The notes beneath the pieces were generated by a model, which worked only from the letters and a program-made list of their open reading frames with translations, was not told where the DNA came from and searched no databases. The translations under genes and the position numbers were made by a program. A DNA stretch of 40,475 bases, from IMG/VR virus record IMGVR_UViG_2875713109_000005. One strand, 5' to 3'. Shown piece after piece: positions 19,986 through 35,428 of this stretch (position 1 is its first letter; each line of letters starts with the position of its first letter). Source of the stretch: a virus. Taxonomy: Duplodnaviria > Heunggongvirae > Uroviricota > Caudoviricetes.

Positions 19986-20602
19986 CTGAACAATGTGACG
20001 GACTCAGAAGCCTTCCCGGGTCTTATCCGGCAGACTCACAGAAAAATCAGGGCAGCATCGGCAGATGGCGCTTACGACACCCGGCTCTGTCACGATGAAC
20101 TGCGGCGTAAGAAAATCAGCGCCCTTATCCCACCCCGAAAAGGTGCGGGTTACTGGCCCGGTGAATATGCAGACCGTAACCGTGCAGTGGCTAATCAGCG
20201 AATGACCGGGAGTAATGCGCGGTGGAAATGGACAACAGATTACAACCGTCGCTCGATAGCGGAAACGGCGATGTACCGGGTGGGTTACTGGCCCGGTGAA
20301 TATGCAGACCGTAACCGTGCAGTGGCTAATCAGCGAATGACCGGGAGTAATGCGCGGTGGAAATGGACAACAGATTACAACCGTCGCTCGATAGCGGAAA
20401 CGGCGATGTACCGGGTAAAACAGCTGTTCGGAGGTTCACTGACACTGCGTGACTACGATGGTCAGGTTGCAGAGGCTATGGCCCTGGTACGAGCGCTGAA
20501 CAAAATGACGAAAGCAGGTATGCCTGAAAGCGTGCGTATTGCCTGAAAACACAACCCGCTACGGGGGAGACTTACCCGAAATCTGATTTATTCAACAAAG
20601 CC
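19986..20602 (+). mobile_element. IS903 3' fragment with a 135-bp internal tandem duplication
   Basis: It starts mid-transposase (..LNNVTDSEAFPGL..) directly at the Tn3 IR. 20147-20281 is repeated at 20282-20416. The terminal IR GATTTATTCAACAAAGCC ends at 20602. Confidence 0.85.
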
Positions 20603-23175
20603 ACGGGAGACTCGCAGTTTGGACACTTTATGTTAATTGAAGACATAGGCATCAAAGACAAATAGGTCCAATACTCGCCATTCTTAATTAATCGTGTATT
20701 GCATGTACCACAGTGGGTATACACGGTAAAGTGTGTACACTCATTGCACCGATACCAACGCTTTTGATTATTTGAACTCATTGATTTCGTTACATCAACT
20801 ACTTTTTCAGACCCACAAGAAACACAAAAATTCACCGCATGAGTATCATCCGATGCTCCTCGAAAAGATGTATTGTCTTCAATGCCGTACTGTAGAAACA
20901 TCCCTAGCATACGTTGGATTTCATCAAGATAGCGTTGCGACTTCATTGGGTTTGCACATACTGCACCATAGTTTGTAGCTTGGCGTTGATGGCGTGCAGG
21001 TTCCCAATCAAACATGGATAGTTCGCCCAAATAACTGTCTTTCGCCCATTCCTGTGGAGAGACGACTTTCTCAACCGCATCTAACACGGGGTGAAGAACA
21101 AACACACTGTTCTCTTGGCATTCGCTATAATCTTTGCCGTTGTAAAGTTCATGGATAACCCCACCGATCCCACCTCTTTGCTTGAGATAGGCAGCAGAAT
21201 AGTACTTTGCATCGACGACTAACCGCTTTGAAATCTGGTTACCACTTTTGGTAATCGCTTCTACATCCAAAACAAAATCAGGGCGCTTACCATTTGCTAA
21301 GAACGGTTCGTATTGCAGAGTGATAGCTCTTGAAACACTTGGGTTGAAAAACTGAATGCTGATTTGTTCTTCATTGCCTTGAATATTCGCAATCAATTTT
21401 CGTTTCCAGTTGTCCTCTGGCTGATAGCGGAATGCCTGAGTCAGCACTTTGATGATTTGCAGCAAACACCAGCGTTCATAAAGTAGTGGCATGTTGACTA
21501 ACCCAATCGCTTCGATCTTCTCCAGCGAAAGCAAAATGTCCTCATCGGCCAAGCCAATCTGCTCTTTTAACTTTTTAAAACCCGAGTGAACCGCTTGATA
21601 GGCAGGGTTTTGCACAAAAGTCATAGAGTTAGGAAAGGTGCTTTTACTTTTGACTTTGCATTGACGCCATTCTTTTTCTATTTGCTGGAAAGGTTTCAGT
21701 TTTGGCTCAAGCGCTTTGTGTACGATTCCCACCTTTTCATGTTCAGTTGCGAAATAACCCAAGCGCTTATTGATGGTAGCACGTTCTTTTTCCTGTTCAG
21801 CGAGTTCATCTGTTGTCAGCTTCGCTTGCCAATCATTTTTACTTAGAGCAATGCCTTTATCACGCAATTTAGTGAAATTTTCTTGCTCTCTTTGAATAGA
21901 ACGAGACTCTGGTAATACGCAAATTCGTGAGATGTATTCTGGATACAAGACCACCGCTTTTCCCCTTCTTAACGGTAAAGGGATCTTCGCTTCTATCTCA
22001 TAGTCGCTATAAGCTTTAAACAAGCTGGCGTAATGATCTCTAGAATTAAAAATGGTATATCCATCTGGCTCAAACTGTTGCCAGTCATCATTTTGCGATA
22101 GTTTAATTTTAGCCCACCACTCATTCTCAGAGCCTGTTGCTTTTTCCAATCTTAGGTAACCTTTTTCAGAGTAACTTCGAGACAGATTAACGTTGATTTT
22201 CGCTAACTGTTCCGATAACTCGGCATTGATTACTTCTGTATCAAAGCGCTTTTTAAGTCGTTCTAAGTCTTTAACTACTAGGTCACGGTTGATAATACGA
22301 TAGTCTTTTAAACTGTCTAAACGCTCATTGAGCTTTTCAATAGCCCCAGAAAAACGACTCTTTTTGCTCTCAGCCACCTTAACCAATTGCTTTACAATGC
22401 TCAGCGTGCTCGAAACCACATACAGCACATACTGGTTTTCTGGCACGTTGTAACTCGGCTCAGATGCGCGGCTCGTTAAATGCTTACGCGAACCTTTGGT
22501 ACAAATCTCCATAAATGTACGTGGAACAGGACGTACTTCTTTTGCTGGCTTTAACGCTTGAATTTCTTTCAGTTCAACTTTGGGCTTTTTGAGGATGGTT
22601 TGTGCATTGCTAAGAATTGATGCGACTAATGACAGCGCTTCTTGGCCGATGGCTGCAACCTGTGAATTTTTAGCGTCGCCCGTGATATGACTATTCTCAT
22701 CGAGGATCAGCTCCCACAGGTCCGCTTTAAAATCTGACAGGTAACGTGAAAGATCCGATTTGGTCTGTTCGGAGATATCAATATCAAGCTTTAGTGTCGA
22801 GTTACCAATAACAAACGTGATCTGACCAGCCGTTCGCCTCGCTTCACTGCGCCACACCCGTTGTTTTGCGTCCCAATGAGCAGGCTCAACCCACCACACA
22901 GCATTAGATGCGGGATCGGTTATCGACTCTAACTGCTTTCTATCACCATTAGGCATGACAATGTAAGGCGGAGACTGATCACCCTGCTTAGTTTTTATCG
23001 CAAGTTGAGCAAAACGTAGCTCATCGACCTTAGGGTAGATGGTGGTGTGTGCGGAAAATGCATTGTTCCCCGTCTGCTCAAGCTTTAGCGAGTACTCCGA
23101 CTCGCTAACACTGACTAAGGTTTGCTTATCGTGCCATTTGGTCTCGATAAACTTGATAACGAATGGAGCTTCCAT
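20572..23175 (-). CDS. large McrC/DUF2357-like PD-(D/E)xK nuclease-family protein with C-terminal double zinc ribbon; 3' end clipped by IS903
   Basis: 867-aa ORF. LLYERWCLLQI is followed by RPDFVLD(633)...VVD(655)AK(657)YY. Four CxxC pairs are present (C784/787, C810/813, C822/825, C851/854). From residue 859 onward the codons and the stop are IS903 IR sequence. The ATG lies 2 nt after the stop of the upstream AAA+ gene. Confidence 0.8.
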   Translation of the reverse strand: MEAPFVIKFIETKWHDKQTLVSVSESEYSLKLEQTGNNAFSAHTTIYPKVDELRFAQLAIKTKQGDQSPPYIVMPNGDRKQLESITDPASNAVWWVEPAHWDAKQRVWRSEARRTAGQITFVIGNSTLKLDIDISEQTKSDLSRYLSDFKADLWELILDENSHITGDAKNSQVAAIGQEALSLVASILSNAQTILKKPKVELKEIQALKPAKEVRPVPRTFMEICTKGSRKHLTSRASEPSYNVPENQYVLYVVSSTLSIVKQLVKVAESKKSRFSGAIEKLNERLDSLKDYRIINRDLVVKDLERLKKRFDTEVINAELSEQLAKINVNLSRSYSEKGYLRLEKATGSENEWWAKIKLSQNDDWQQFEPDGYTIFNSRDHYASLFKAYSDYEIEAKIPLPLRRGKAVVLYPEYISRICVLPESRSIQREQENFTKLRDKGIALSKNDWQAKLTTDELAEQEKERATINKRLGYFATEHEKVGIVHKALEPKLKPFQQIEKEWRQCKVKSKSTFPNSMTFVQNPAYQAVHSGFKKLKEQIGLADEDILLSLEKIEAIGLVNMPLLYERWCLLQIIKVLTQAFRYQPEDNWKRKLIANIQGNEEQISIQFFNPSVSRAITLQYEPFLANGKRPDFVLDVEAITKSGNQISKRLVVDAKYYSAAYLKQRGGIGGVIHELYNGKDYSECQENSVFVLHPVLDAVEKVVSPQEWAKDSYLGELSMFDWEPARHQRQATNYGAVCANPMKSQRYLDEIQRMLGMFLQYGIEDNTSFRGASDDTHAVNFCVSCGSEKVVDVTKSMSSNNQKRWYRCNECTHFTVYTHCGTCNTRLIKNGEYWTYLSLMPMSSINIKCPNCESPVALLNKSDFG

Positions 23176-23177
23176 GA

Positions 23178-25352
23178 TTACGCCCAGTAGTTCACAACGC
23201 CATCATTCGATTCAGCCGTTTTAACCAAACGCTCTACCGATTTGGTGCAAGAAAACTCCGCCGTTATCTCTGCTTGATTATCCAACAGCGACTCAAGGCG
23301 AGGCAAGAATACACGGCTAACAAGCTCAGCTTTACTGTAATCGCCTACTTGCTTATCACCATCAAATGTGAATTTTGGTAGCACCTTATGAACGATAAAG
23401 TTGTTGATGGCCAGAGACTTATTGTCGTTTACATCGCTAAACAAACTTACGTAGTTAAGCCCCTGTCGAATGGTACGCATACCAAACTCCACGCCAAGCG
23501 GATCAAAGACATCTCGGTTTAAGGTCGTAAACAACTCGCAGAATTCATTCGTACGTTCAAATTTCGGATAAGGGGTACGCTCACCAAGCTCTTCAATATC
23601 AAACACTAGCGGTAAAGTAACGTCGTCTAGCCCGTAAGAGTCAATCTCATCAAAAATCGCATCCCAGTCGGTCAGCAAAGGACTCTTAAACTTCATCACA
23701 TGCGCGCGGTCAAGAATTTTTGGTGAGAGGTAATGGGTTGTTTCGTCGATGTTGATAGCACCAATAATTCTTACGTTCGCTGGAATCGTGATTGACGAAG
23801 GCGTGCCGAGAACACCTGCCAACATGCGTCTGATATCACCGTGGTATTTAATCAGTGAGTCTTTATCGCTAAAGCCAAACGCGCGCTTCATTTCAGCGTT
23901 AATTTCTTCATCTTGCATGAGCGCAACGAAGTCCACGATGCCATTTTTGCTGAACTTTTCTTGCGCGTTAGAAATGACAGAAACAACCCCTTTTAGCTCG
24001 GCAAGAACGTGTGCAGCTTCATCATCCGAGTAAAGTTGAATGGTCGGTTGCTCGTTACGCTCCTCTAGCTTAGAAAGAAAGTCGGCAAAGTAATATTCCA
24101 CTCGGGCAAGGTTCATTTCGTCTAAACAGATGAAGTATGGGATATCTGGGTTTTGCTTAGCCTCGATCAATGCCTCAAGAAATGGTGTCACCAAATATTT
24201 CTTCTCTAGGGGATTGTAATAACCCAGCAAATCTTCTGAACTAGTCCAGTTAGGCTTGACCGGAATGATCTTCGATACCCCACCAATAGCCTTGGCAAAC
24301 GACTGAACCAGGTTTGTTTTGCCTGAGCCTGAGTCCCCCGCCAGAATGATGAGATCATGGGTGCGAATAAGCGTTAGGAAGTTCTCGATAATATGGCGCG
24401 GGTACAAGATATCTCGTTCTTTTAGGTGCGCTTGAATGTATGAAACGGCATCACTGTAGTTAGAATCAAAAGCTTGCGAAAAAGAGATATGCTCGTCACG
24501 ATCCTTATTAGACAAGGTGCTTCCAACAAAAAGGTCAAAATCGTCATCATCCAAAAACTCAAAGCTTTTTAGGAATCCAGCCTTACTTTCGACATAAGCT
24601 TTTAAGCGTTCAATTTTTTTAGACATTGTTTCTTCTGCCTTCTTTTGCAATGCGATTTTGTGTTGCCATTCAGAGTGTTCAACTTCCAGCTTTTGGGCTT
24701 TCGCAATTGCCTGAGAGAGAACGTTATTTTTTTGATTTAGGTCATCTTGGACATGTTGAAGCTGATCTTTATATGACGATATCTGAGCCTTCAATGAGGA
24801 TTCTTCGCGCTCAAATTCTGCGTTAAGTGCAGTCACTTCGCTGTCAATTCTTGATTGAACGTTCTGTAAATGCTGCTTGTAAACAGCTTCATCAAGGAAG
24901 ATGTTTTCATCACCTTTGATGATGTCATTCGCCGTATATTCAGGAAGTTTGATAAGTCGACGGACTGAACTTACTACCACATTGCATTCGAACGGGTTTT
25001 CATGTTTTTCGCGTTCAGATTGAGGCGCTAAAGCAAGCTCGCATGAGACAAAACTCCCATCTTCCAAGCCAAATAACTCTTCGACACTTTTGAAGGAAAC
25101 AAAAACACCTTTGTCCATCGTCAAACGAACATTAATGGGATATTCAGTATCCAGTCCCGTTTGGAGGGATTTAATCTCTAAAAGACGGGTTGGGAGCTTT
25201 CTGCTATCGGAATCTGGGCCATTTAGAATCTTGCCCCAAACTGCCAGTTTTCCATTCGTAATCCCCCAACTCTCACAAAGGCATTGATAAAGCTCTTCAT
25301 CAGAGAACCCTTTAACCTCTTCAAGATTGTAGATAACTTGTTCTAAGGCCAT
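23178..25352 (-). CDS. McrB-like (AAA_5 branch) AAA+ NTPase with N-terminal unknown domain and coiled coil
   Basis: 724 aa. Walker A GDSGSGKT (aa 339-346, nt 24315-24338), Walker B FICLDEMNLARVEYYFADFL (aa 407-426), IIGAINIDETTHYLSPKILDRAHV (aa 529-552), and a heptad-rich segment at aa ~155-257. Confidence 0.8.
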   Translation of the reverse strand: MALEQVIYNLEEVKGFSDEELYQCLCESWGITNGKLAVWGKILNGPDSDSRKLPTRLLEIKSLQTGLDTEYPINVRLTMDKGVFVSFKSVEELFGLEDGSFVSCELALAPQSEREKHENPFECNVVVSSVRRLIKLPEYTANDIIKGDENIFLDEAVYKQHLQNVQSRIDSEVTALNAEFEREESSLKAQISSYKDQLQHVQDDLNQKNNVLSQAIAKAQKLEVEHSEWQHKIALQKKAEETMSKKIERLKAYVESKAGFLKSFEFLDDDDFDLFVGSTLSNKDRDEHISFSQAFDSNYSDAVSYIQAHLKERDILYPRHIIENFLTLIRTHDLIILAGDSGSGKTNLVQSFAKAIGGVSKIIPVKPNWTSSEDLLGYYNPLEKKYLVTPFLEALIEAKQNPDIPYFICLDEMNLARVEYYFADFLSKLEERNEQPTIQLYSDDEAAHVLAELKGVVSVISNAQEKFSKNGIVDFVALMQDEEINAEMKRAFGFSDKDSLIKYHGDIRRMLAGVLGTPSSITIPANVRIIGAINIDETTHYLSPKILDRAHVMKFKSPLLTDWDAIFDEIDSYGLDDVTLPLVFDIEELGERTPYPKFERTNEFCELFTTLNRDVFDPLGVEFGMRTIRQGLNYVSLFSDVNDNKSLAINNFIVHKVLPKFTFDGDKQVGDYSKAELVSRVFLPRLESLLDNQAEITAEFSCTKSVERLVKTAESNDGVVNYWA

Positions 25353-25599
25353 GATTTCTATTCAAAAAATAAATAAAGGGATTACCTAAGTGTTGCAAAC
25401 TCAACACATCTACATCTAGAGAAAAACAGGTTTAGCTTTGCTTCTTATCTAGCATTTTTTAGCGAGATAATCGCCAACGAGCATTTCAATAAATTCTTTA
25501 AGCTCCTGATATTAAACACCATAAGTCTAATATGGCAACAGTTTCTATAATCGCGTTTCGCGAATCCGTGTGACCTGCCCCCAGGATTAGATACAACCG

Positions 25600-26433
25600 T
25601 CAGTTAGTAAGGTCGGTTTGTTTACCTTCACATTTTCCATTTCGCCACCGTGCTGCAAACTCTGATGGCGTCTGATAATTCAGTGCTGAATGTGGACGAC
25701 ACTCGTTATAATCCTGCCGCCAGTCATTAATGATTTTCCTTGCGTGAACGATATCGCTGAACCAGTGCTCATTCAGGCATTCATCGCGAAATCGTCCGTT
25801 AAAGCTCTCAATAAATCCGTTCTGCGTTGGCTTGCCCGGCTGGATTAAGCGCAACTCAACACCATGCTCAAAGGCCCATTGATCCAGTGCACGGCAAGTG
25901 AACTCCGGCCCCTGGTCAGTTCTTATCGTCGCCGGATAGCCTCGAAACAGTGCAATGCTGTCCAGAATACGCGAGACCTGAACGCCTGAAATCCCAAAGG
26001 CAACAGTGACCGTCAGGCATTCCTTTGTGAAATCATCGACGCAGGTAAGACACTTGATCCTGCGACCGGTGGAAAGTGCGTCCATGACGAAATCCATCGA
26101 CCAGGTCAGATTGGGCGCCGCCGGACGGAGCAGCGGCAGACGTTCTGTTGCCAGCCCTTTACGACGTCTTCTGCGTTTTACGCCCAGGCCACTGAGGTGA
26201 TAAAGCCGGTACACGCGCTTATGATTAACATGAAGCCCTTCACGGCGCAGCAATTGCCAAATACGACGGTAGCCAAAACGCCTGCGCTCCAGTGCCAGCT
26301 CAGTGATGCGCCCTGATAAATGCGCATCAGCAGCCGGACGGTGAGCCTCATAGCGGCAGGTCGACAGGGACAAACCTGTAAGCCTGCAGGCACGACGTTG
26401 CGACAGACCGGTCGCATCACACATCAGCATCAC
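25600..26433 (-). CDS. IS3-family transposase OrfB (DDE/rve domain)
   Basis: Motifs include ...WSMDFV...TDQGPEF...[17 protein letters not shown].... The frame stays open upstream of its first ATG, in the -1 frame relative to orfA. Confidence 0.85.
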
Positions 26434-26456
26434 GGCTTCCCGCTTCTGGTCTGTCG

Positions 26457-26720
26457 TCAGTACTTTCGCCCAAGAGCCACCTGAAGCGCCTCTTTATCCA
26501 GCATGGCTTCGGCAAGCAGCTTCTTGAGTCTGGCGTTCTCTTCCTCAAGCGACTTCAGGCGCTTAACTTCAGGCACCTCCATACCGCCATACTTCTTACG
26601 CCAGGTGTAAAACGTGGCATCGGAAATGGCATGCTTGCGGCAGAGTTCACGGGCGGGTACCCCAGCTTCGGCTTCGCGGAGAATACTGATGATCTGTTCG
26701 TCGGAAAAACGCTTCTTCAT
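26457..26720 (-). CDS. IS3-family transposase OrfA (HTH)
   Basis: [49 protein letters not shown]... followed by a leucine-zipper-like tail, which is the IS407-group OrfA pattern. Confidence 0.85.
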
Positions 26721-26797
26721 GGGGATGTCCTCATGTGGCTTATGAAGACATTACTAACATCGGGGTGTACTAATCAACGGGGAGCAGGTCATAGTCT

Positions 26798-26873
26798 ATG
26801 GGCACACCACGTTTTACCCCTGAATTTAAGGAAGAAGCTGTCCGCCAAATCACCGAGCGGGGCTATTCCATCT
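26798..26873 (+). pseudogene. 5' remnant of a second IS3-family orfA, cut by IS903
   Basis: MGTPRFTPEFKEEAVRQITERGYSI, after which the IS903 IR begins at 26874. Confidence 0.5.
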
Positions 26874-28260
26874 GGCTTTGTTGAATAAATCAGATTTCGG
26901 GTAAGTCTCCCCCGTAGCGGGTTGTGTTTTCAGGCAATACGCACGCTTTCAGGCATACCTGCTTTCGTCATTTTGTTCAGCGCTCGTACCAGGGCCATAG
27001 CCTCCGCAACCTGACCATCGTTACCCGGTACATCGCCGTTTCCGCTATCGAGCGACGGTTGTAATCTGTTGTCCATTTCCACCGCGCATTACTCCCGGTC
27101 ATTCGCTGATTAGCCACTGCACGGTTACGGTCTGCATATTCACCGGGCCAGTAACCCGCACCTTTTCGGGGAGGGATAAGNGCGCTGATTTTCTTACGCC
27201 GCAGTTCATCGTGACAGAGCCGGGTGTCGTAAGCGCCGTCTGCCGATGCTGCCCTGATTTTTCTGTGAGTCTGCCGGATAAGACCCGGGAAGGCTTCTGA
27301 GTCCGTCACATTGTTCAGCGACAGGTCTGCACAGATGATTTCATGTGTGTTGCTGTCAACTGCCAGATGCAACTTTCGCCATATACGACGGCGTTCCTGG
27401 CCATGCTTTTTGACTTTCCACTCGCCTTCACCAAAGACCTTCAGCCCGGTGGAATCAATCACCAGATGCGCGATTTCACCCCGGGTGAACGTTTTGAAAC
27501 TGACGTTAACCGACTTTGCCCGCCTGCTGACACAGCTGTAATCCGGGCANGATGATTTCATGTGTGTTGCTGTCAACTGCCAGATGCAACTTTCGCCATA
27601 TACGACGGCGTTCCTGGCCATGCTTTTTGACTTTCCACTCGCCTTCACCAAAGACCTTCAGCCCGGTGGAATCAATCACCAGATGCGCGATTTCACCCCG
27701 GGTGAACGTTTTGAAACTGACGTTAACCGACTTTGCCCGCCTGCTGACACAGCTGTAATCCGGGCAGCGNANCGGAACNTTCATCAGNGNAAAAATGGAA
27801 TCAATAAAGCCCTGCGCAGCGCGCAGGGTCAGCCTGAATACGCGTTTAATGACCAGCACAGTCGTGATGGCAAGGTCAGAATAGCGCTGGGGCCTTCCCC
27901 GTGATGAAGGCGTTGCCGACTCATACCAGGCCTGAATCGCCCCATCATCCAGCCAGAAAGTGAGGGAGCCACGGTTGATGAGAGCTTTGTTGTAGGTGGA
28001 CCAGTTGGTGATTCTGAACTTTTGCTTTGCCACGGAATGGTCTGTGTTGTCGGGAGGATGCGTGATCTGATCCTTCAACTCAGCAAAAGTTCGATTTATT
28101 NNNNNNNNNNNNNNNNNNNNNCGGTTGATGAGAGCTTTGTTGTAGGTGGACCAGTTGGTGATTCTGAACTTTTGCTTTGCCACGGAATGGTCTGTGTTGT
28201 CGGGAGGATGCGTGATCTGATCCTTCAACTCAGCAAAAGTTCGATTTATTCAACAAAGCC
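26874..28260 (-). mobile_element. IS903 copy (both IRs present) with deletion, duplication and gap anomalies
   Basis: GGCTTTGTTGAATAAATC at 26874 and its inverse ending at 28260. Relative to the 4729 copy there is a 37-bp deletion after 27016. 27334-27549 is repeated at 27551-27766. A 21-N gap (28101-28121) is flanked by a 129-bp duplication. Several n bases are present. Corrected length is 1020+37 = 1057 bp, the canonical IS903 size. Confidence 0.85.
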
Positions 28261-28741
28261 CCAACCAATTAGCAATTCGCTTTTCGCATGTGCTAAAACA
28301 CCACTCTGGGTGTGCATCATTTAGCAATTCAGCCATTTTGCGTTTGGTCATCCCCCGCCCCTCATACCGTTGCCGAAGGACGCTAATCAATCCTGGATGC
28401 TCTGCCAGCACCTCACTTATGACCCGATCAATACATAACGCCTCTGCATCAGTACAATGCGCCAGCCAGCTCTTTTGCTTACCGTTAATCATATCCCGCA
28501 AAAAAGCCTCAAGTTCAGACTTGTTCAGACCTGCTTTTTTCATCCTCCGGAGCGCCTCGTTAATTGCCGTTTTTGTCAGCTTTTTAGAGGCCAACAACTG
28601 GTTGAACATATTCCCCGTCTTACCGCCGCCAATATACGACCAGCGCCCCCACATGCGCAGTTTTCCCTGAATCCAGACACTTTCCAGCGTGGTGAGACGA
28701 AGGTGTTCCCCGCTTTTGCCTGTATTTGTTGGGTAAATCAT
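28261..28741 (-). pseudogene. 5' part (160 codons) of the Q-type late antiterminator gene, interrupted by IS903
   Basis: ATG 28741 overlaps the upstream stop (ATGA). The product starts MIYPTNTGKSGEHLRLTTLESVWIQGKLRMWGRWSY.... It occupies the position between the nin-like genes and the lysis cassette. The frame continues at 4719-4658. The family assignment rests on position and the RMWGRW motif and is not verified. Confidence 0.6.
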
Positions 28742-29028
28742 AAATAACCTTCCTTTCTCCAGATTTCTTGCGTGCGAAAAACACCTTCTGCATGCATCAG
28801 GCGTAAATCTTCTTTGGTGTAATCGCTTGTTTTTACCCGCCCGTCGATTAAATCGTGGCATGAGCTACAGGCAATCGCCGCCTGCATATCGTGTGGTTTT
28901 GTCGCTGTTCCGCACGTTCCCGCCAGTCGGTAATGCGCCAGCACAGACGTTTCCGGATCGTGATTGCAGTAGCCAAGAATTCTGACGGTGCACATCCGCC
29001 CCCGCGCCGCTTTACGTAAATCCACCAT
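28738..29028 (-). CDS. YbcO-like (DUF1364) prophage protein
   Basis: 96 aa, MVDLRKAARGRMCTVRILGYCNHDPETSVLAHYRLAG.CGT.TKP.D..A..ACS.CHD. It closely parallels DLP12 YbcO as I recall it. Confidence 0.7.
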   Translation of the reverse strand: MVDLRKAARGRMCTVRILGYCNHDPETSVLAHYRLAGTCGTATKPHDMQAAIACSSCHDLIDGRVKTSDYTKEDLRLMHAEGVFRTQEIWRKEGYL

Positions 29029-29627
29029 TACGCAAACTCCAGCAGCTGCGCGGCCACATTTTCGACTTGTTCCGGAGAGGAAAATTTACGGAACAGAATC
29101 CAGTTCCACAGCACATTCAGAACAGATTTATAAACCTGCTGAAACTCGGTTTCGTCCATATTCGCAAAAGCGATAGATTTTGCCCGACGCCCGCGGCTAC
29201 CGTCCGGATAAAAATGTTCGGTGTAAAATCCAGCCTGAATGGTTACCCACTCGCGAAAAGCCTCAAACGACTTTAGCAATGCCGTATCCCGGGTTCTGCG
29301 TGTCGCAACTGTATTCAGATATTGCTCTGCGGCTTCGCTCAGAGCTGGCGTATGTTCCCGGCCTACTGATTCACATAGGTAATCAACGAATCCTGAAACC
29401 AGCTTTCGTTCGCGAGGCGTGATCGCCCCACCGACCGGAGTCCAGTAATCGAATCCCAGTTGCAGGAGTTTGAAAAAACGCTTGTGGAATGCGTAGTTAC
29501 GCACACGCTTAAAGTCTGCGTGTATCCACTCGCCTATTTTGATTTGATGCAAAAAATCGCAACTCTCCGGCGTCGCCGGGAGAAGTAGTCCAGAAGAGGT
29601 TTGTTTGACCAGTTGTATATGCGCCAT
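29028..29627 (-). CDS. DUF1367 (YdfU-like) prophage protein
   Basis: 199 aa. It occupies the nin-region position upstream of ybcO-like and Q, with overlapping start and stop. The family call is from memory of Qin YdfU. Confidence 0.55.
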   Translation of the reverse strand: MAHIQLVKQTSSGLLLPATPESCDFLHQIKIGEWIHADFKRVRNYAFHKRFFKLLQLGFDYWTPVGGAITPRERKLVSGFVDYLCESVGREHTPALSEAAEQYLNTVATRRTRDTALLKSFEAFREWVTIQAGFYTEHFYPDGSRGRRAKSIAFANMDETEFQQVYKSVLNVLWNWILFRKFSSPEQVENVAAQLLEFA

Positions 29628-30494
29628 TTCTCAATCTCTCGATGGCGCAGTGCAGCAGATGCCAGTTGTTCAGGCTGACGAATAAAGTATAAATAAACTG
29701 GCTATGGTGTAAAGCTCCACATAACATGAACAAACACTACATATCAAATAGCTGATACAAGGATAGAAATACAACACTTATTATTAAAAACGATTAGATA
29801 AATTACATTTTAATGTTATGAAAAAGTTCTTTTTTATCATAACATTTCAACAAAAGCATTACAGATGCACATCCCGTCATCATCAATTATTTAAGGTGGT
29901 TAAACATGGAAAATAACAACTATGCACATCTCGCTCCTTTTTTATCCGTAATCCTTTTCGCTGGCTGTTTTATATGGGCATTATTTTTATAAAGTAGCCG
30001 CATGATTAGTTTCTGGAATCATGTTTCCCACTCAAATCATTAACATTTGATAAGATATATCTAAAAGGATGCCTTTACATTATTTGATGCGTATATGATT
30101 TATTTATATGCACAGTAAAGGCATCCTGGAAATAATCAAGATTAATGATATATTGCTTATCTCATCCCCCACTGTCTTTCACCCGGAAAACATTTATCGT
30201 TAAAAATATATCATAAGTAATTAAATTGAAATTTCAGAACACAACTAATGCACACAATAAGATTCAGTAACAGTAATCTATGCGGACTATATCGAGATTT
30301 TTTAGTTAAACTTTAATAAGTTATTCCTAACACACAGAATGCACAAACTAAAAGTAAAACAAATAGTTATACGAAAAACAACCATATTGATTCTATCTTC
30401 TCCTCTAATCAACATATCAATTATGTGTTTCATAACAGCTTGACATAACCCTCAAAAAGGTGCATTTATAATGCATGTTTTATGGGAGGTGGTT

Positions 30495-30836
30495 ATGACA
30501 CACAAGAGAATTCCTAAAGACTGGGTAATCAAACGCTCAACTCCGTTCTTCACAAAAGAGAACGTACCTTCAGCGTTATTAACACATCATAATACAGCAG
30601 CAGGTGTTTTTGGACAGTTATGCGTGATGGAAGGTACTGTAACATATTATGGTTTTGCTGATGAGAATGCTACTGAACCGGAGATAAAAGTAGTCATTAA
30701 TGCTGGCGCTTTTGCAACAAGCCCACCACAATACTGGCACCGTGTTGAACTAAGCGATGATGCTCAGTTTAATATTAACTTTTGGGTAGCTCCAGACTTC
30801 TCAGGCGAAAAAGTCTATACCGCAAAAAAAGAATAG
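30495..30836 (+). CDS. YeaR/TehB-N-like DUF1971 protein (moron)
   Basis: GGAGG lies upstream of ATG 30495. RSTPFFTKENVPSALLTHHNT..GV.G.L.VM.G.V.Y.GFADE...EP......AG.FA..PP..WH.VE...D..FNI.F.VAP parallels E. coli YeaR. Confidence 0.6.
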   Translation: MTHKRIPKDWVIKRSTPFFTKENVPSALLTHHNTAAGVFGQLCVMEGTVTYYGFADENATEPEIKVVINAGAFATSPPQYWHRVELSDDAQFNINFWVAPDFSGEKVYTAKKE

Positions 30837-30918
30837 CCACGCTATAAATATCTTATTAACTAGTCCCGGCGTGGTTCTTTCCCCGCTGGGTCTTTTACTC
30901 AGATTAGTAGTCTACGAA

Positions 30919-31044
30919 TCAGAGCCTCCGTCTGCCAGTTCGGATTCGTACCTCGCAGAGGTCTTTCCTCGTTACCAGTGCCGTCACTATGACGGTTAAA
31001 CAGATGACGATCAGGGCGATTAACATCGCCTTTTGCTGCTTCAT
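30919..31044 (-). pseudogene. hok/gef-family type I toxin homolog with aberrant C-terminus
   Basis: AAGGAG lies 8 nt upstream of ATG 31044. MKQQKAMLIALIVICLTVIVTALVTRKDLCEVRIRTG is identical to the HokD/Gef-type N-terminus as I recall it. It then reads RRRL-stop where the family has QTEVAVF.., consistent with a 1-nt deletion (GGCAGACGGAGG vs GGCCAGACGGAGG) plus divergence. Confidence 0.6.
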
Positions 31045-31566
31045 AGCCTGCTTCTCCTTGACCTTTCGGTCCGTAAGAGGCTAATCTCTATGTGTCGCAT
31101 AGATATGGCCTCAGATTAATGTTAAACGTCTTGCAGGACGCGTAATGTTAACTGGGGCTTTTCTCTATCTACCTTTGGTGTTCATGCCCGAGGCAGATAG
31201 CCTCAAGCACCCACAGCAATTCTAACTATCCAATACATCACTGCCAACACTTTAAACTCTTACCCTTTAAAACAAGAACAAAATTCAACCAATCAGCATT
31301 GGGCGTATACTCATATCCTAGAGAAAACAACTCTTTCTGTACCATTTATATCCATATGATTTATAAGCATTTGCCACTTGCCATAGCCGCACAATGACAG
31401 TTTGCCATTTGATGTCAATAGATAAAAATGATCGTTTTCAATGAGTTACATACTTGCAAGGCGTTGCACATCAGGCCCGATTACGTCAGTATCAAAAGAT
31501 TACAGATGGTGCATTACTGCCACCTCGCCTTAATGTTCCAGAACTCTCCAACTTGAGGAATTTTCA

Positions 31567-32340
31567 ATGACATCCTTTCAATTATCTTTGATTTCTCGTG
31601 AAATTGACGGCGAAATAATACATTTACGTGCCAAAGATGGTTACATAAACGCCACATCAATGTGTAGAACTGCGGGCAAACTGCTCTCTGATTACACTAG
31701 ACTCAAAACTACTCAAGAGTTTTTTGACGAATTATCACGCGATATGGGAATTCCCATATCGGAGTTAATTCAATCATTTAAAGGTGGAAGACCTGAAAAC
31801 CAAGGGACATGGGTGCATCCTGACATCGCTATTAATCTAGCGCAGTGGCTATCGCCCAAATTTGCAGTCCAGGTTTCAAGATGGGTTCGTGAATGGATGT
31901 CAGGGGAAAGAACTACAGCAGAAATGCCTGTACATTTAAAACGGTACATGGTTAATCGTAGTAGAATTCCTCACACGCACTTTTCTATTCTTAATGAACT
32001 GACATTCAACTTGGTTGCACCTCTTGAACAAGCAGGGTACACACTCCCAGAAAAAATGGTTCCTGACATTTCACAAGGAAGAGTATTTTCACAATGGTTA
32101 AGAGATAATAGAAACGTAGAACCCAAAACATTCCCTACCTATGACCATGAATATCCCGATGGTCGCGTATACCCTGCAAGGCTGTACCCAAATGAATATT
32201 TAGCAGATTTCAAAGAACATTTTAACAATGTTTGGTTGCCGCAATATGCCCCGAAATACTTCGCTGACCGGGACAAAAAGGCTCTCGCCTTGATTGAAAA
32301 AATTATGCTACCTAACCTCGATGGCAATGAACAGTTCTAA
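31567..32340 (+). CDS. KilA-N domain-containing prophage protein
   Basis: 257 aa. The N-terminal ...GYINATSMCRTAGKLLSDYTRLKTTQEFFDELSRDMGIP...GGRPENQGTWVHPDIAINLAQWLSPKFAVQVSRWV matches the KilA-N DNA-binding domain pattern. Confidence 0.75.
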   Translation: MTSFQLSLISREIDGEIIHLRAKDGYINATSMCRTAGKLLSDYTRLKTTQEFFDELSRDMGIPISELIQSFKGGRPENQGTWVHPDIAINLAQWLSPKFAVQVSRWVREWMSGERTTAEMPVHLKRYMVNRSRIPHTHFSILNELTFNLVAPLEQAGYTLPEKMVPDISQGRVFSQWLRDNRNVEPKTFPTYDHEYPDGRVYPARLYPNEYLADFKEHFNNVWLPQYAPKYFADRDKKALALIEKIMLPNLDGNEQF

Positions 32341-32460
32341 ATGATTAGCCAGCCCCATAAGGGCTGGTTATTTAGTATTATCAACCCCAGCGGCAAATCG
32401 AATACACCACCAGCGCCACCGCCATCGCAATTCCTACCGTTGTGAATGCTTCAGGCCAGG

Positions 32461-32964
32461 TCATCGTAAAACATCCTCCACGCTTATAAGTCCGCTTCGC
32501 TCCAGGTAGTCCATCACTTTATCCGGCAATTTGCAGCCCGGTTTCGCTTTCTTCAGTTGACTAACCAATTGTTTAACCAGCATTGTCAATTCGCGAACTT
32601 GTTTCCCGGGCTCCCCTTTGCCCTGAAGCAGGGCAGCGCGGCAAGCGTTCCATCCCTCAGCATATGTTTCAGTTACACCATCGAGATGGCATGTAAGCAA
32701 ATCCATTTCTTCCGGCACTACGGGCGCTGGAAAAACGGCATAGGGTGGCGTCCATTTTGGCGCTTTATCTCCAGCCGAACGCTGATACCAGTCATCCGGT
32801 TTGTATTCATAAAAATCACCAACTGGCTCTGCTTCCAGCGATGCCAGAGCAATTTTGAATAATTCGCCCTCTACCCGTGCCATCCCTGAATTGGGGTGGC
32901 ATTTCTCAATCGCTATTTTTAATTTAGCTTCTTCGATTAATTGCTTTTTGGTTAATTCAGTCAT
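32461..32964 (-). CDS. hypothetical prophage protein
   Basis: 167-aa ORF in the early-region orientation. I recognise no family. Confidence 0.5.
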   Translation of the reverse strand: MTELTKKQLIEEAKLKIAIEKCHPNSGMARVEGELFKIALASLEAEPVGDFYEYKPDDWYQRSAGDKAPKWTPPYAVFPAPVVPEEMDLLTCHLDGVTETYAEGWNACRAALLQGKGEPGKQVRELTMLVKQLVSQLKKAKPGCKLPDKVMDYLERSGLISVEDVLR

Positions 32965-33126
32965 TTTTCATTACCGCCCTTTCGGGCCGCCTCCTAATAT
33001 TTTGAGGGTGCAGCCCCCCCCCTCCGGTTAAGGATTAAATTTTATTTACAGTGCTAAATTTAATTATTCAGATTTGGATTATGATTTCTCTTTCAGTTCA
33101 CGCAGTTCCCTGATTGTTAATTTGGC

Positions 33127-33564
33127 TCACAACAGCACATCCTGAAAATTACCCTGATAGAACGCCAGTACACGCTGCATGACTTCGCTCTTCCGGCACT
33201 CGCGACAGATTATATTCAGACGCCTGTCATAGCGGCGTATTTCTCCGTCTGGTAATGACCAGATAAGGTCCGGATCAACTACAGCAGGTTTCTTCACCTT
33301 TGCCCTCGATAGTTTTTTGCGGGCGTTTTGCCAGTCTTTACGCGCCTGTTCAGACGGGAATAACCCGTAACCAGAGTTGTATACATCGCCACTGGCAACC
33401 AGCTCACTGGCGAGAACACTCATCAGATATCTTGTCGCACCTGTCTTGGCTTCCAGTTGCCGTAACGTCTCGCGACCGCTCAGACGTACAAGTTCAACAA
33501 CCTGCCCTTTAATTTTTTCCCGCTCTTCTGGTGTAAATACTTTTGCCATAGGTGCCTCCGGCAA
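33127..33564 (-). CDS. hypothetical prophage protein
   Basis: 145-aa ORF starting immediately after the upstream stop. An alternative start is M6 at 33549. I recognise no family. Confidence 0.5.
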   Translation of the reverse strand: MPEAPMAKVFTPEEREKIKGQVVELVRLSGRETLRQLEAKTGATRYLMSVLASELVASGDVYNSGYGLFPSEQARKDWQNARKKLSRAKVKKPAVVDPDLIWSLPDGEIRRYDRRLNIICRECRKSEVMQRVLAFYQGNFQDVLL

Positions 33565-34359
33565 TCACTTTTCCGATGCAACATGGCGGGAAGAATCAGT
33601 AATCTGTCGTACAATATCCCTGTGCTTGTTCAACTCACGCAGCGCGGCGCAGACACACTCCCACTTCTGGACATGATTTTTCGCCCGACGCAGTTCGCGG
33701 TTTGCCATATGCAGTGATGGTAAAACCAGGTCATCCGCTCGCGTTTCAGTAAACGATGGCAGCGACTGCACAATGTCCGCCACAGTTTCTGTTTTAATAT
33801 CTTCCTGTGTTGCAGCCTCCTGTACTGGTAACGCAACACCTGCGGTCTGAGGAAAGGCCTTACCATCAGTTTCCGCTACCGATGCTGCTTTCGGCTCTGC
33901 TGGTAAATTATCGCCCGGTATGCAGTAACGAAATTTACCGCCCTGATTTACGCGAATCAGACGACCTTTGCTGATTGCCATTGCCAGCGTTGAAGCCACT
34001 TTGCGTGATGTGGTACCAAACAATGTAGCCAGCTCATCAGCCGTTTGTGGTCCGCGTTGTTCAATCGTCGCGGTTAAATCGCACTCTGAGATTTTCGCTA
34101 CTGTTGCTGTGGTGGTTTCTTCCAGCAGTTCTACCTGCGCTGGCTGTTCCTGCTGAACGTTGTTATCAGCCACACGCCAGGTGTACGCGCTTTTATCAAC
34201 ACAACCAGCCTTTTTCAGTTCCCATAGTTCGTTCAGCACTTCTTCACGACTGATATCAAGTCGAGCAGCAAGTTCTATGGATGTGGCTTTTCCCATTGCT
34301 TTCAGTGCGTCAAAAACAGTCTCCATTAAATTTTTCTCCCGGTAAAAATTACTTCGCAA
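33565..34359 (-). CDS. winged-helix prophage protein (DUF1627/YdaW-like)
   Basis: The likely start is M12 at 34326 ([41 protein letters not shown]), with a second wHTH-like repeat ([28 protein letters not shown]). It lies downstream of the DnaC-like remnant. Confidence 0.5.
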
Positions 34360-34828
34360 TTCCTAGCTGGACGACATTCGGACGCCAGCTCTCCCAGTTA
34401 AAATTCACCCATCGCCCGCCGTTCATGGTCATGCGATCCATAATCCGCTCGCCGAGCAATGTTTTCATGGCCTCATAGTTCAGGTTTGTCAGCATCCCCA
34501 CGCTGCGCATCGAAGCTGTCCGGCGATCAACAATCTGGTGCAGTACCACCTGCTCGTTTTTCGTCTCGCGCTGAATGCCAATTTCATCAAGAACCAGCAG
34601 ATCCACTTCGCACAGTTCCCGCAAAAATTTTTCGCCTGACTGCCCGTCGTCATAGCTGGCGTGCAGGGCACTCATAACATCAGCCACGGTAACCACAATC
34701 ACTGTCTGACCGTCTTTCAGCAGGCGATTCCCGATAGCTGCCGCTAAGTGGTTCTTCCCGGTAGCCATTGCTGATTGCCCACCGACAACAGCACAAGCTT
34801 GCTTGAATGAATAGTTCTCTTTTTTCAT
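34349..34828 (-). pseudogene. in-frame fusion of the ydaS 5' end (Cro-like HTH start) to the 3' two-thirds of a DnaC/YdaV-like replication ATPase
   Basis: MKKENYSFKQACAVVGGQSAMA (the YdaS N-terminus as I recall it) joins directly to TGKNHLAAAIGN...DLLVLDEIG.... The first Gly of the P-loop GxxxxGK is lost at the junction. Confidence 0.6.
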
Positions 34829-34857
34829 CGAATGAACTCCAAAAACACACAGAAATA

Positions 34858-34900
34858 TTAGGCGACGCCTAACGCAATTGTCAATAGGCTGTGCCTAATG
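34858..34900. promoter_or_regulatory. racR-ydaS divergent control region with TTAGGC-type operators
   Basis: Palindrome TTAGGCG-A-CGCCTAA (34858-34872). ATTGTCAATAGGCTGTGCCTAATG (34877-34900) recurs inverted at 35523-35546. A further GCCTAA lies at ~34918. Confidence 0.5.
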
Positions 34901-34951
34901 CGGTAAGGGTAGGGATTGCCTAATGTAATGCGCATAGGAGAATATTAAGCA

Positions 34952-35428
34952 ATGCTTAGTGGTAAAGACTTAGGCCGAGCGATAGAGCAGGCCATTAACA
35001 AAAAAATCGCATCGGGATCCGTCAAATCAAAGGCGGAGGTCGCACGCCACTTCAAAGTCCAACCACCATCAATTTATGACTGGATTAAGAAAGGCTCTAT
35101 AAGTAAAGATAAACTTCCAGAATTATGGCGTTTCTTTTCTGATGTTGTTGGTCCAGAGCATTGGGGGCTTAACGAATACCCCATACCAACCCCCACCAAT
35201 TCAGATACAAAAAGTGAACTTTTAGATATAAACAACCTTTATCAAGCAGCCTCTGATGAAATAAGAGCGATTGTAGCTTTCCTGTTATCTGGAAATGCTA
35301 CAGAACCAGATTGGGTTGACCACGATGTTCGCGCCTACATAGCAGCGATGGAAATGAAAGTGGGTAAGTATCTGAAAGCTCTAGAATCTGAACGGAAAAG
35401 CCAGAACATCACAAAAACTGGAACTTAA
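34952..35428 (+). CDS. racR: Rac prophage repressor
   Basis: 158 aa with an N-terminal HTH (KAEVARHFKVQPPSIYDWIKKG). It is divergent from the ydaS remnant and matches K-12 RacR as I recall it. Confidence 0.85.
   Translation: MLSGKDLGRAIEQAINKKIASGSVKSKAEVARHFKVQPPSIYDWIKKGSISKDKLPELWRFFSDVVGPEHWGLNEYPIPTPTNSDTKSELLDINNLYQAASDEIRAIVAFLLSGNATEPDWVDHDVRAYIAAMEMKVGKYLKALESERKSQNITKTGT

What the first reader, a model, noticed from the sequence alone, without database searches (positions are those of the whole stretch)
20572..25352. IS-bracketed two-gene McrBC-derived module: best candidate for an uncharacterised anti-phage system
Two minus-strand genes are translationally coupled, with the stop TAA and the next ATG separated by 2 nt at 23175-23180. 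The upstream 724-aa protein has GDSGSGKT, FICLDEMNLA and IIGAINIDETTHYLSPKILDR. I associate this DE(I/M)N(R/L)A plus N-x-D plus distal Arg pattern with the McrB/AAA_5 branch rather than generic AAA+. The downstream protein of at least 858 aa has LLYERWCLLQI followed by PDFVLD...(21 aa)...VVDAKYY, a McrC/DUF2357-style PD-(D/E)xK core (nt 21205-21282). This is the logic of McrBC type IV restriction. However, both proteins are far larger than E. coli McrB and McrC, no recognisable modified-DNA reader domain is visible, coiled-coil segments occur in both subunits, and the nuclease subunit ends in zinc ribbons. The architecture resembles the computationally described coiled-coil McrBC relatives (CoCoNuT-like), but here only two genes are present, with no helicase or other accessory genes. 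The module sits among IS elements next to a resistance transposon and is AT-richer by eye than the flanks, as is typical of mobile defence cargo.
Basis: partly seen in the sequence, partly recalled or inferred. Interest (0 to 1): 0.9.

Follow-up and report, generated by a model that had tools for sequence, protein, structure and literature searches.

The report
Two-gene Type I-A CoCoNuT (McrBC-like) module
The two genes are a real, intact McrBC-like nuclease/ATPase pair, but already catalogued by computation (Type I-A CoCoNuT, PADLOC candidate PDC-M26) and common on enterobacterial resistance plasmids; its function has never been tested.

Summary
The novelty claim does not hold.

- **Already catalogued.** Both proteins match PADLOC models PDC-M26A/B end to end. 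The operon's conserved parts are 98-100% identical to the E. coli S43 operon, whose CnuC is the published Type I-A CoCoNuT exemplar.
- **Two genes is the definition.** Type I-A consists of CnuB plus CnuC only. Its hallmark is a helical insert between Walker B and an NxD motif. Here the spacing is 123 aa, as in 78 of 80 related loci.
- **Not truncated.** IS903 landed in the last codon. All 858 native residues remain, plus a 9-aa tail.
- **Widespread.** At least 155 plasmids and 25 of 5426 complete E. coli genomes hold it. In other species it often sits beside Type I RM or BREX genes.
- **Untested.** I found no experimental test.
- **One modest new point.** Near-identical operon backbones carry very different cassettes at CnuB 41-280 and CnuC 321-480, and these co-vary. 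They may be specificity modules.

Likely mechanism, inferred: an NTP-driven CnuB ring activates the CnuC PD-(D/E)xK nuclease after the variable heads sense foreign nucleic acid.

The parts
23178..25352 (-). cnuB: 724-aa McrB-like AAA+ NTPase (PADLOC PDC-M26A)
24903..25265 (-). CnuB residues about 30-150: N-terminal beta-rich domain (five predicted strands; called a CSD-like OB fold by Bell et al.); hypervariable
   Evidence: AlphaFold2 strands 36-43, 55-62, 83-85, 101-108, 123-125. No Pfam hit. Residues 41-160 are 12-35% identical between two alleles whose AAA+ domains are 98-100% identical. Real relatives occur only at N-termini of AAA_5 proteins.
24570..24890 (-). CnuB residues 155-261: long single helix (coiled-coil segment); hypervariable
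   Evidence: AlphaFold2 helix 155-261. Weak coiled-coil family hits. Mean pairwise identity 0.21 in 59 loci.
24315..24338 (-). Walker A GDSGSGKT (K345)
   Evidence: invariant
24105..24134 (-). Walker B FICLDEMNLA (D411, E412), McrB-type DE(I/M)N(R/L)A
   Evidence: Aligned to DEINRA of EcoK McrB.
23811..24023 (-). Helical insert (residues about 444-514) between Walker B and NxD: the Type I-A hallmark
   Evidence: AlphaFold2 helices 444-467, 475-492, 500-514. D411 to N534 spacing is 123 aa here and in 78 of 80 related loci. Definition of the subtype.
23745..23753 (-). NxD signature N534-I535-D536, followed by E537
   Evidence: invariant. Definition of the NxD branch.
20572..23175 (-). cnuC: McrC-like nuclease subunit, 858 native residues plus a 9-aa tail (PADLOC PDC-M26B)
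   Evidence: ORF. PDDEXK_7 E = 1.1e-7 and DUF2357 E = 1.7e-3. PDC-M26B 1428 bits over 1-857 of 857. Foldseek top hit McrC 6ut7_G.
22774..23163 (-). CnuC residues 5-134: N-terminal beta-sandwich (Ig-like)
   Evidence: AlphaFold2 strands. Foldseek hits to complement MG and filamin Ig domains, alignment positions not shown.
21916..22167 (-). CnuC residues 337-420: beta domain inserted at the tip of the coiled-coil hairpin inside DUF2357 (CSD-like OB per Bell et al.); hypervariable
   Evidence: AlphaFold2. Foldseek OB-fold hits 3u4z_A and 4joi_C, positions not shown. 55-70% identity between alleles against 98-100% in the backbone. 34-68% in relatives whose backbone regions are mostly above 90% identical.
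20890..21498 (-). CnuC PD-(D/E)xK nuclease domain (residues about 560-762); catalytic core P632 D633 ... D655 A656 K657 at nt 21205-21282
   Evidence: PDDEXK_7 at 565-660. E623, P632, D633, D655, K657 invariant. DAKYY aligned to D257/K259 of EcoK McrC.
20614..20826 (-). CnuC C-terminal zinc ribbons (four CxxC pairs, C784 to C854)
   Evidence: Sequence. Seven of the eight cysteines invariant or nearly so. Weak Zn_ribbon hits. Beta hairpins at 792-839.
20572..20601 (-). Nine IS903-encoded codons (ALLNKSDFG) plus stop, fused to cnuC
   Evidence: Window compared with the native Klebsiella copy. 9-bp target duplication ACGGGAGAC in pYLMB52a.
25353..25570 (-). 218-bp upstream region that travels with the operon; one sigma-70-like site at 25538-25509
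   Evidence: Homology to Klebsiella plasmids ends at 25570. Promoter scan not above chance.
19986..20602 (+). Partial IS903 copy abutting the cnuC 3' end (contains a 135-nt exact tandem duplication, probably an assembly artefact)
25571..26873 (-). IS3-family element upstream of cnuB
   Evidence: ORFs 25600-26433 and 26457-26720. Annotated as an IS3 family transposase in pYLMB52a.
26874..28260 (-). IS903 copy, inverted relative to the one at 20602 (with N runs and duplications)

Best explanation
The module is a Type I-A CoCoNuT, a two-gene derivative of the McrBC Type IV restriction system. It is carried as mobile defence cargo.

**Shown here**
- cnuB encodes an AAA+ NTPase of the McrB/MoxR/dynein clade. 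It has intact Walker A and Walker B motifs, the shortened NxD signature, and a helical insert of about 70 aa. Ahead of these lie a beta-rich domain and a helix of about 107 residues.
- cnuC, tightly coupled to cnuB, encodes a McrC-like protein. Its parts in order are an Ig-like beta-sandwich, a DUF2357 region split by a coiled-coil hairpin with a small beta domain at its tip, an intact PD-(D/E)xK nuclease, and zinc ribbons.

**Inferred by analogy with EcoK McrBC**
- CnuB forms a hexameric ring.
- The DUF2357 part of CnuC threads into the ring and stimulates NTP hydrolysis.
- Hydrolysis licenses the CnuC nuclease.

**Inferred from the variation pattern**
- The CnuB N-terminal domain plus coiled coil, and the CnuC inserted beta domain, form a fast-evolving, co-varying sensor or specificity head. 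This head replaces the modified-DNA reader of classical McrB.
- It recognises a foreign nucleic acid. Single-stranded RNA or DNA is most likely if the OB-fold assignment is right.
- Recognition triggers cleavage of invading DNA, or of host nucleic acid as well. The result is restriction of phage or plasmid, or abortive infection.
For: **Catalogue identity**
- End-to-end matches to PADLOC PDC-M26A and PDC-M26B.
- Bell et al. define Type I-A as CnuB plus CnuC with a helical insert between Walker B and NxD. They describe Type I-A CnuC as Ig-like domain, DUF2357 with coiled-coil and CSD insert, PD-(D/E)xK and ZnR.
- A sister allele (L084, equal to E. coli S43) is 398/399 and 397/399 identical to the first 399 residues, as held in the paper's supplementary table, of that paper's S43 pair APL73567.1 (CnuB) and APL73566.1 (CnuC, its Type I-A CnuC exemplar).
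- The window allele is 98-100% identical to that sister allele outside two cassettes.

**Motifs**
- Catalytic motifs are invariant.
- The 123-aa Walker B to NxD spacing occurs in 78 of 80 loci.

**Structure and homology**
- AlphaFold2 architecture.
- McrC homology: best Foldseek hit 6ut7_G; DAKYY alignment.

**Operon organisation**
- The gap between the two genes is -28 to +13 nt in nearly all of the 75 loci that hold both genes, the two wider gaps being truncated copies.
- No third conserved gene in 72 loci.

**Defence context**
- Type I RM, PglZ and BrxL neighbours.
- Zorya I next door in Klebsiella and BREX nearby in pYLMB52a.
- PDC candidates were picked because they sit embedded in BREX, DISARM or RM I systems.

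**Variable cassettes**.

**A related type works**: a seven-gene Type II CoCoNuT protected P. aeruginosa against RNA phages and one DNA phage.
Against: - No experiment on Type I-A or PDC-M26 was found.
- Of the PADLOC candidates tested by others, about half or fewer gave protection.
- The profile does not find McrB in PDB sequences.
- The match to McrC is weak: Foldseek E = 5e-3, and hhalign probability 15%.
- The OB/CSD assignment of the variable domains could not be confirmed. hhalign to CspA is negative, and no domain-level fold search was possible.
- The partial Mantel test is liberal for related sequences.
- The ligand, the nucleotide used (GTP or ATP) and the nuclease substrate are all unknown.
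- The 9-aa tail lies 4 residues after the last CxxC pair and could impair this particular copy.
Confidence: 0.72

Rival explanations
1. It is a classical modification-dependent Type IV restriction enzyme. Like EcoK McrBC, it would recognise methylated, hydroxymethylated or glucosylated DNA, translocate double-stranded DNA and cut it.
For: McrB- and McrC-type cores with an intact PD-(D/E)xK nuclease. Frequent placement next to Type I RM and BREX, as with BrxU inside BREX. A divergent McrBC in Klebsiella blocks plasmid entry.
Against: There is no Pfam hit of any kind in CnuB 1-150, so no known reader of modified bases. The N-terminal domain is restricted to this family. Bell et al. place the NxD coiled-coil branch apart from the DNA-reader-bearing McrB proteins.
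Confidence: 0.15
2. It is an RNA-sensing or RNA-targeting abortive-infection system, as proposed for CoCoNuTs in general. The OB-like domains would bind phage or translation-related RNA, and activation would lead to host or phage RNA damage and dormancy.
For: Bell et al.'s argument from CSD-like OB folds. A Type II CoCoNuT protects against RNA phages.
Against: Type I-A has no HEPN or other dedicated RNase; its only nuclease is PD-(D/E)xK. The CSD assignment was not confirmed here. This overlaps the best explanation as to sensing and differs only as to the substrate cleaved.
Confidence: 0.2
3. It is not a defence system. It would be a plasmid or IS-associated selfish or maintenance module (addiction or plasmid competition), or a decaying passenger gene pair.
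For: It is always found amid IS elements on MDR plasmids. No phage test exists. This copy carries an IS-derived tail.
Against: The ORFs are intact and 99.6-100% conserved in at least 155 plasmids. Catalytic residues are invariant across 34-100% identity. In other species it is chromosomal, beside RM and BREX genes. No antitoxin-like partner is present.
Confidence: 0.08
4. The larger protein is the pyrethroid-hydrolysing esterase EstP, as many database records name it.
For: The names 'EstP' and 'pyrethroid hydrolase' are attached to homologs. EstP of Klebsiella sp. ZD112 was reported as a 73-kDa esterase.
Against: There is no esterase or alpha/beta-hydrolase family hit. The domains are PD-(D/E)xK, DUF2357 and zinc ribbons. 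The gene is obligatorily coupled to an AAA+ partner. The name appears to be propagated from one report.
Confidence: 0.02

Closest known systems
Type I-A CoCoNuT (CnuB/CnuC), Bell et al. 2024, eLife 13:RP94800
   Same: Same two-gene composition and the same NxD motif. Same helical insert between Walker B and NxD, and same N-terminal domain plus coiled coil on CnuB. CnuC has the same order of Ig-like domain, DUF2357 with coiled-coil and beta-domain insert, active PD-(D/E)xK and ZnR. The backbone is 98-100% identical to the E. coli S43 operon whose CnuC is that paper's exemplar.
   Different: It is a different allele of the two variable cassettes: CnuB 41-280 is 12-60% identical and CnuC 321-480 is 55-70% identical. 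It also carries a 9-aa IS903-derived tail on CnuC.
PADLOC phage defence candidate PDC-M26 (Payne et al. 2024 bioRxiv, guilt by embedding)
   Same: Full-length HMM matches to both components.
   Different: None detected. PDC-M26 is an untested candidate, not a validated system.
EcoK McrBC (Type IV restriction)
   Same: An AAA+ NTPase with the DE(I/M)N(R/L)A Walker B, plus a DUF2357 and PD-(D/E)xK partner. The gene order B then C and the tight coupling are also shared.
   Different: NxD instead of NxxD, and a 123-aa instead of 54-aa Walker B to signature spacing. There is no DUF3578-type 5mC reader. Coiled coils, an Ig-like domain, an inserted beta domain and zinc ribbons are added, and the proteins are 1.6 and 2.5 times larger.
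Type II CoCoNuT (the Obs locus of P. aeruginosa)
   Same: Same CnuB/CnuC lineage. Bell et al. place Type II as branching from within Type I-A. It has been shown to protect against RNA phages and one DNA phage.
   Different: Type II has seven genes, including the CnuH helicase, CnuE and TerY-P, and an inactivated CnuC nuclease. Here there are two genes and an intact nuclease.

Membership tests
Type I-A CoCoNuT | McrB-like NTPase with an NxD (not NxxD) signature motif | tested here: met
   N534-I535-D536-E537, invariant in 42 homologs. Definition.
Type I-A CoCoNuT | Helical insert in the NTPase domain between Walker B and NxD | tested here: met
   123-aa spacing against 54 aa in EcoK McrB (the EcoK figure is from my own knowledge of NTAD 333-336). 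AlphaFold2 helices at 444-514. The same spacing occurs in 78 of 80 loci.
Type I-A CoCoNuT | Long coiled coil fused N-terminally to the NTPase | tested here: met
   Predicted helix 155-261. Weak coiled-coil and SMC-like hits. Oligomeric coiled-coil pairing was not modelled.
Type I-A CoCoNuT | CSD-like OB fold at the CnuB N-terminus | tested here: inconclusive
   A five-strand beta domain is predicted. It has no Pfam hit and no hhalign similarity to CspA. No domain-level fold search was possible.
Type I-A CoCoNuT | System consists of CnuB and CnuC only (no CnuH helicase, CnuE or CnuA) | tested here: met
   No neighbouring family is present in more than 10 of 72 loci. In the window, IS elements flank both sides.
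Type I-A CoCoNuT | CnuC with an Ig-like N-terminal beta-sandwich and DUF2357 interrupted by coiled coils plus a small beta (CSD-like) domain | tested here: met
   AlphaFold2 (pLDDT 79.5) shows strands 5-134, helices 245-330 and 425-505 flanking a beta domain at 337-420. Ig-like and OB-fold Foldseek hits, positions not reported. DUF2357 E = 1.7e-3, below the Pfam cut-off.
Type I-A CoCoNuT | Catalytically intact PD-(D/E)xK nuclease and C-terminal zinc ribbon(s) in CnuC | tested here: met
   PDDEXK_7 above cut-off. E623, D633, D655 and K657 invariant, and seven of the eight cysteines of the four CxxC pairs invariant or nearly so.
Type I-A CoCoNuT | Placement in the Type I-A clade of the CnuB phylogeny | tested here: met
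   No tree was built. However, the AAA+ domain is 98-100% identical to that of the E. coli S43 operon listed in the paper's supplementary table, whose CnuC (APL73566.1) is the paper's Type I-A exemplar.
PADLOC PDC-M26 | Both component HMMs matched in adjacent genes | tested here: met
   PDC-M26A 1107 bits over 1-724 of 724. PDC-M26B 1428 bits over 1-857 of 857.
McrBC Type IV restriction (canonical) | McrB-family AAA+ GTPase that is closest to McrB among AAA+ proteins | tested here: inconclusive
McrBC Type IV restriction (canonical) | NxxD GTPase signature | tested here: not met
   The motif is NxD.
McrBC Type IV restriction (canonical) | N-terminal domain that reads modified DNA bases | tested here: not met
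   No such domain by Pfam, NCBIfam or PADLOC.
McrBC Type IV restriction (canonical) | GTP-dependent, modification-dependent DNA cleavage | not testable with these tools
   Needs biochemistry.

The most novel reading that the evidence does not exclude
The two hypervariable cassettes (CnuB beta domain plus coiled coil, and the CnuC inserted beta domain) could pack together into one exchangeable sensor head on a coiled-coil stalk, and this head would set target specificity. Alleles with near-identical enzymatic backbones would then restrict different phages or plasmids. This would be a swappable specificity module for a McrBC-type machine, circulating on clinical MDR plasmids.
Probability: 0.25. 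Interest if true: 0.6.

Novelty: already known. Interest (0 to 1): 0.3.

Why it matters
As a discovery it adds little.

It still matters in three practical ways:
- Type I-A CoCoNuT/PDC-M26 has no published functional test that I could find.
- This allele sits on many IncR and IncF resistance plasmids of Klebsiella, E. coli, Salmonella, Citrobacter and Enterobacter, so any anti-phage or anti-plasmid activity would bear on phage therapy and plasmid spread.
- The two natural alleles share a backbone but differ in their cassettes, which offers a ready-made experiment on how a reader-less McrBC relative chooses its target.

Tried and rejected
- **PDB sequence search.** A profile search of PDB sequences with the CnuB alignment found only spurious hits (ketol-acid reductoisomerase, myosin) and no McrB.
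- **Homology of the variable domains.** hhalign of the CnuB N-terminal domain and the CnuC insert against CspA, against each other and against the CnuC Ig-like domain showed no similarity.
- **Search with the sensor domain.** An exhaustive search of 1.84 billion representatives with CnuB 1-150 gave 40 hits. The real ones are all N-termini of CnuB-like proteins, and the multi-stretch hits are repeat or coiled-coil artefacts. Other protein contexts therefore give no clue to the ligand.
- **Viral contigs.** IMG/VR holds no relatives.
- **NCBIfam.** Nothing scored above cut-off.
- **Literature.** Searches for PDC-M26, the RefSeq accessions, CnuB and CnuC found no experimental work on this subtype.
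- **Promoters and terminators.** Counts were not above shuffled controls.
- **IS903 composite transposon limited to the module.** Considered and rejected. In pYLMB52a the IS903 at the 3' end has its own 9-bp target duplication, so it is a simple insertion.
- **Esterase (EstP) reading.** Rejected on domain content.
Full report
**1. Observation**

The window holds two minus-strand ORFs, 23178-25352 (724 aa) and 20572-23175 (867 aa). On the coding strand the junction reads TAA-tc-ATG. All quoted motifs are present at the positions implied:
- Walker A G339-T346
- Walker B F407-A416 (D411, E412)
- N534-I535-D536
- P632-D633 and D655-A656-K657, with codons 632-657 equal to nt 21282-21205

These residues are invariant in alignments of 42 CnuB and 47 CnuC homologs that reach down to about 37-55% identity.

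The segment 20603-25570 has 42.6% GC against about 50% on either side. It is bounded by an IS903 end at 20602 and by an IS3-family element from about 25571, followed by a second, inverted IS903 at 26874-28260.

One correction is needed. The IS903 terminal repeat abuts inside the last native codon (GT|A TGA in the native Klebsiella copy becomes GTG GCT ... here). All 858 native residues survive and nine (ALLNKSDFG) are appended. In the related plasmid pYLMB52a this IS903 has its own 9-bp target duplication, ACGGGAGAC, so it is a simple insertion.

**2. What it is**

*Family searches.* Pfam gives AAA_5 for the first protein. For the second it gives PDDEXK_7 plus a sub-threshold DUF2357 and weak zinc-ribbon hits. 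NCBIfam has nothing above cut-off. PADLOC matches both proteins end to end: PDC-M26A at 1107 bits over 1-724 of 724, and PDC-M26B at 1428 bits over 1-857 of 857. PDC systems are 145 untested candidates, chosen because they occur embedded in BREX, DISARM or Type I RM loci.

*Published classification.* Bell et al. (eLife 2024) split McrBC relatives by the GTPase signature. They define the coiled-coil NxD branch as CoCoNuTs. They state that Type I-A and I-C consist of CnuB and CnuC only, and that Type I-A is distinguished by a helical insert between Walker B and NxD. [quoted passage not shown]

*Link to the published exemplar.* The paper's structural exemplar for Type I-A CnuC is APL73566.1 of E. 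coli S43. Its supplementary table lists that protein together with its partner CnuB, APL73567.1. A second enterobacterial allele that I fetched (L084, identical in its BLAST profile to the S43 locus) is 397/399 and 398/399 identical to the first 399 residues held for each of these two proteins. The window's operon is 98-100% identical to that allele except in two segments.

*Structure predictions.* My own AlphaFold2 models agree with the published architecture.
- CnuB (pLDDT 74.7) has a five-strand beta domain at 36-125, one helix at 155-261, and an AAA+ domain whose helices 444-514 lie between Walker B and NxD.
- CnuC (pLDDT 79.5, pTM 0.74) has a beta-sandwich at 5-134 and helices 245-330 and 425-505 flanking a beta domain at 337-420. 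A nuclease fold and beta hairpins with four CxxC pairs follow.

*Conservation across loci.* The D411 to N534 spacing is 123 aa. The same value appears in 78 of 80 loci from other species at 34-72% identity. A CnuC-like gene of about 840-900 aa follows at -28 to +13 nt in nearly all of the 75 loci that hold both genes.

**3. Relationship to McrBC**

- hhalign of the CnuB alignment to EcoK McrB gives probability 88% and E = 3e-6 over Walker A to Walker B, aligning DEMNLA with DEINRA.
- For CnuC, the best PDB match is McrC of T. gammatolerans (6ut7_G, E = 5e-3), with E. coli McrC at rank 12.
- hhalign to EcoK McrC aligns only the DAKYY catalytic strand.

The McrBC ancestry is therefore credible, but it rests on the combination of both partners. 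The canonical NxxD motif and the modified-base reader are absent. I file the module under Type I-A CoCoNuT, not under canonical McrBC.

**4. Distribution and context**

- At least 155 plasmid records hold 80% or more of 20400-25600 at 99.6-100% identity, in Klebsiella, E. coli, Salmonella, Citrobacter and Enterobacter.
- 25 of 5426 complete E. coli genomes hold it, in two alleles.
- In a K. pneumoniae IncFIB plasmid the native 858-aa form lies one IS903 away from a Type I Zorya system.
- In E. coli pYLMB52a, BREX genes are close by.
- Across 72 loci from other species no third gene is conserved; the maximum is 10 of 72. The recurrent neighbours are HsdM (10 loci), HsdR (6), HsdS (4), PglZ (7), BrxL (6, of which 5 end 40 bp upstream) and integrases (8).
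- IMG/VR viral contigs hold no relatives.

**5. A modest new observation**

Between the two enterobacterial alleles the CnuB AAA+ domain is 98-100% identical. By contrast, CnuB 41-240 is 12-35% identical in every 40-residue window, and 241-280 is 60%. CnuC is 98-100% identical in most 40-residue windows (92-95% at 561-640) except at 321-480, where it is 55-70%.

The same pattern holds in a wider set. CnuB relatives with 94-99% identical AAA+ domains have N-terminal and coiled-coil regions ranging from 24% to 100%. CnuC relatives whose backbone regions are mostly above 90% identical have inserts at 34-68%.

In 59 paired loci these are the fastest-evolving regions, with mean pairwise identity 0.20-0.27 against 0.54 for the AAA+ domain. 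After controlling for AAA+ and nuclease divergence, the CnuB coiled coil co-varies with the CnuC insert more strongly than any other inter-protein pair tested (partial Mantel r = 0.60, against 0.17-0.23 for the zinc ribbons). This test is liberal for related sequences, so I treat the result as suggestive.

The pattern fits exchangeable, co-adapted specificity modules. The N-terminal domain occurs nowhere outside CnuB-like proteins, so its ligand cannot be guessed from other contexts. Its proposed CSD/OB nature could not be confirmed by sequence.

**6. Mechanism**

*Shown:* intact NTPase and nuclease motifs, tight coupling, the domain architecture, the defence-island context and the variable cassettes.

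*Inferred from EcoK McrBC:* ring assembly, threading of DUF2357 into the ring, and nuclease licensing by NTP hydrolysis.

*Inferred from the variation pattern:* the beta domains on the coiled coils act as the sensor.

The substrate (DNA or RNA) and the outcome (restriction or abortive infection) are open. A seven-gene Type II CoCoNuT has been shown to protect P. aeruginosa against RNA phages and one DNA phage. I found no test of Type I-A.

**7. Verdict**

The novelty is low, because this is a known, named, computationally described system and the two-gene composition is its definition. Interest lies only in the missing experiment, the clinical-plasmid distribution and the cassette pattern.

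Noticed in passing
window 4720-4728 and 28261-28269; IS903 ends at 4729 and 28260: The outermost IS903 ends are flanked by the same 9 bp, CCAACCAAT. So 4729-28260 (23.5 kb) looks like one IS903-bounded composite insertion. It holds IS903, sitABCD, Tn3/blaTEM-1, a partial IS903, cnuCB, IS3 and IS903. The joined flanks align without a break (76% identity) to lambdoid prophage DNA.
   Followed up: partly
window 28261-40475: This part is a Rac-like lambdoid prophage (recE, recT, integrase, replication genes), 98.4% identical over 93% to Escherichia phage vB_EcoS-666R9. The plasmid-type resistance and defence block therefore sits inside prophage DNA in this window.
   Followed up: partly
window 20147-20416, 27334-27766, 27972-28250; N runs at 2298-2318 and 28101-28121: There are exact tandem duplications of 135, 216 and 129 nt inside IS903 copies, some separated by N runs, plus scattered single N positions. 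They look like assembly or scaffolding artefacts in repeated IS sequence. The odd 183-aa ORF at 19995-20546 with an internal repeat is a by-product.
   Followed up: partly
CnuC homologs in databases (for example P0127, P0151, P0161, P0218): Many records name this McrC-like nuclease 'EstP' or 'pyrethroid hydrolase', apparently propagated from the 2006 report on Klebsiella sp. ZD112. The domain content gives no support for an esterase. I did not compare the original EstP sequence.
   Followed up: partly
L032, L035, L038, L043, L045, L046, L054, L074, L076 (directly after cnuC): In 9 of 72 related loci (CnuB 37-47% identical to the window's) a conserved ORF of about 656 aa with no Pfam hit starts from 27 nt before to 22 nt after the cnuC stop (202 nt after it in one locus), on the same strand. 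It could be a third component of a sub-branch. It is not present in the window.
   Followed up: partly
L085 (E. coli D4 chromosome NZ_CP010143.1, 4729408-4774406): This chromosome record carries two inverted copies of the same cnuBC-IS903 unit, together with duplicated tet(B) regions and plasmid replication and partition genes. It is either an integrated, rearranged plasmid or an assembly problem.
   Followed up: no
L001 (K. pneumoniae pCRE-195-1) and L002 (E. coli pYLMB52a): The module's plasmid neighbours include a complete Type I Zorya (zorA1, zorB1, zorC, zorD) and BREX genes (WYL, DUF1819, DUF1788), separated from it only by IS elements. These are small plasmid defence islands assembled by IS activity.
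   Followed up: partly
window 25353-25570: The same 218 bp upstream of cnuB travels with the operon in every context examined, and homology stops exactly at 25570. It holds one weak sigma-70-like site (25538-25509) and no strong Shine-Dalgarno sequence before the ATG.
   Followed up: no
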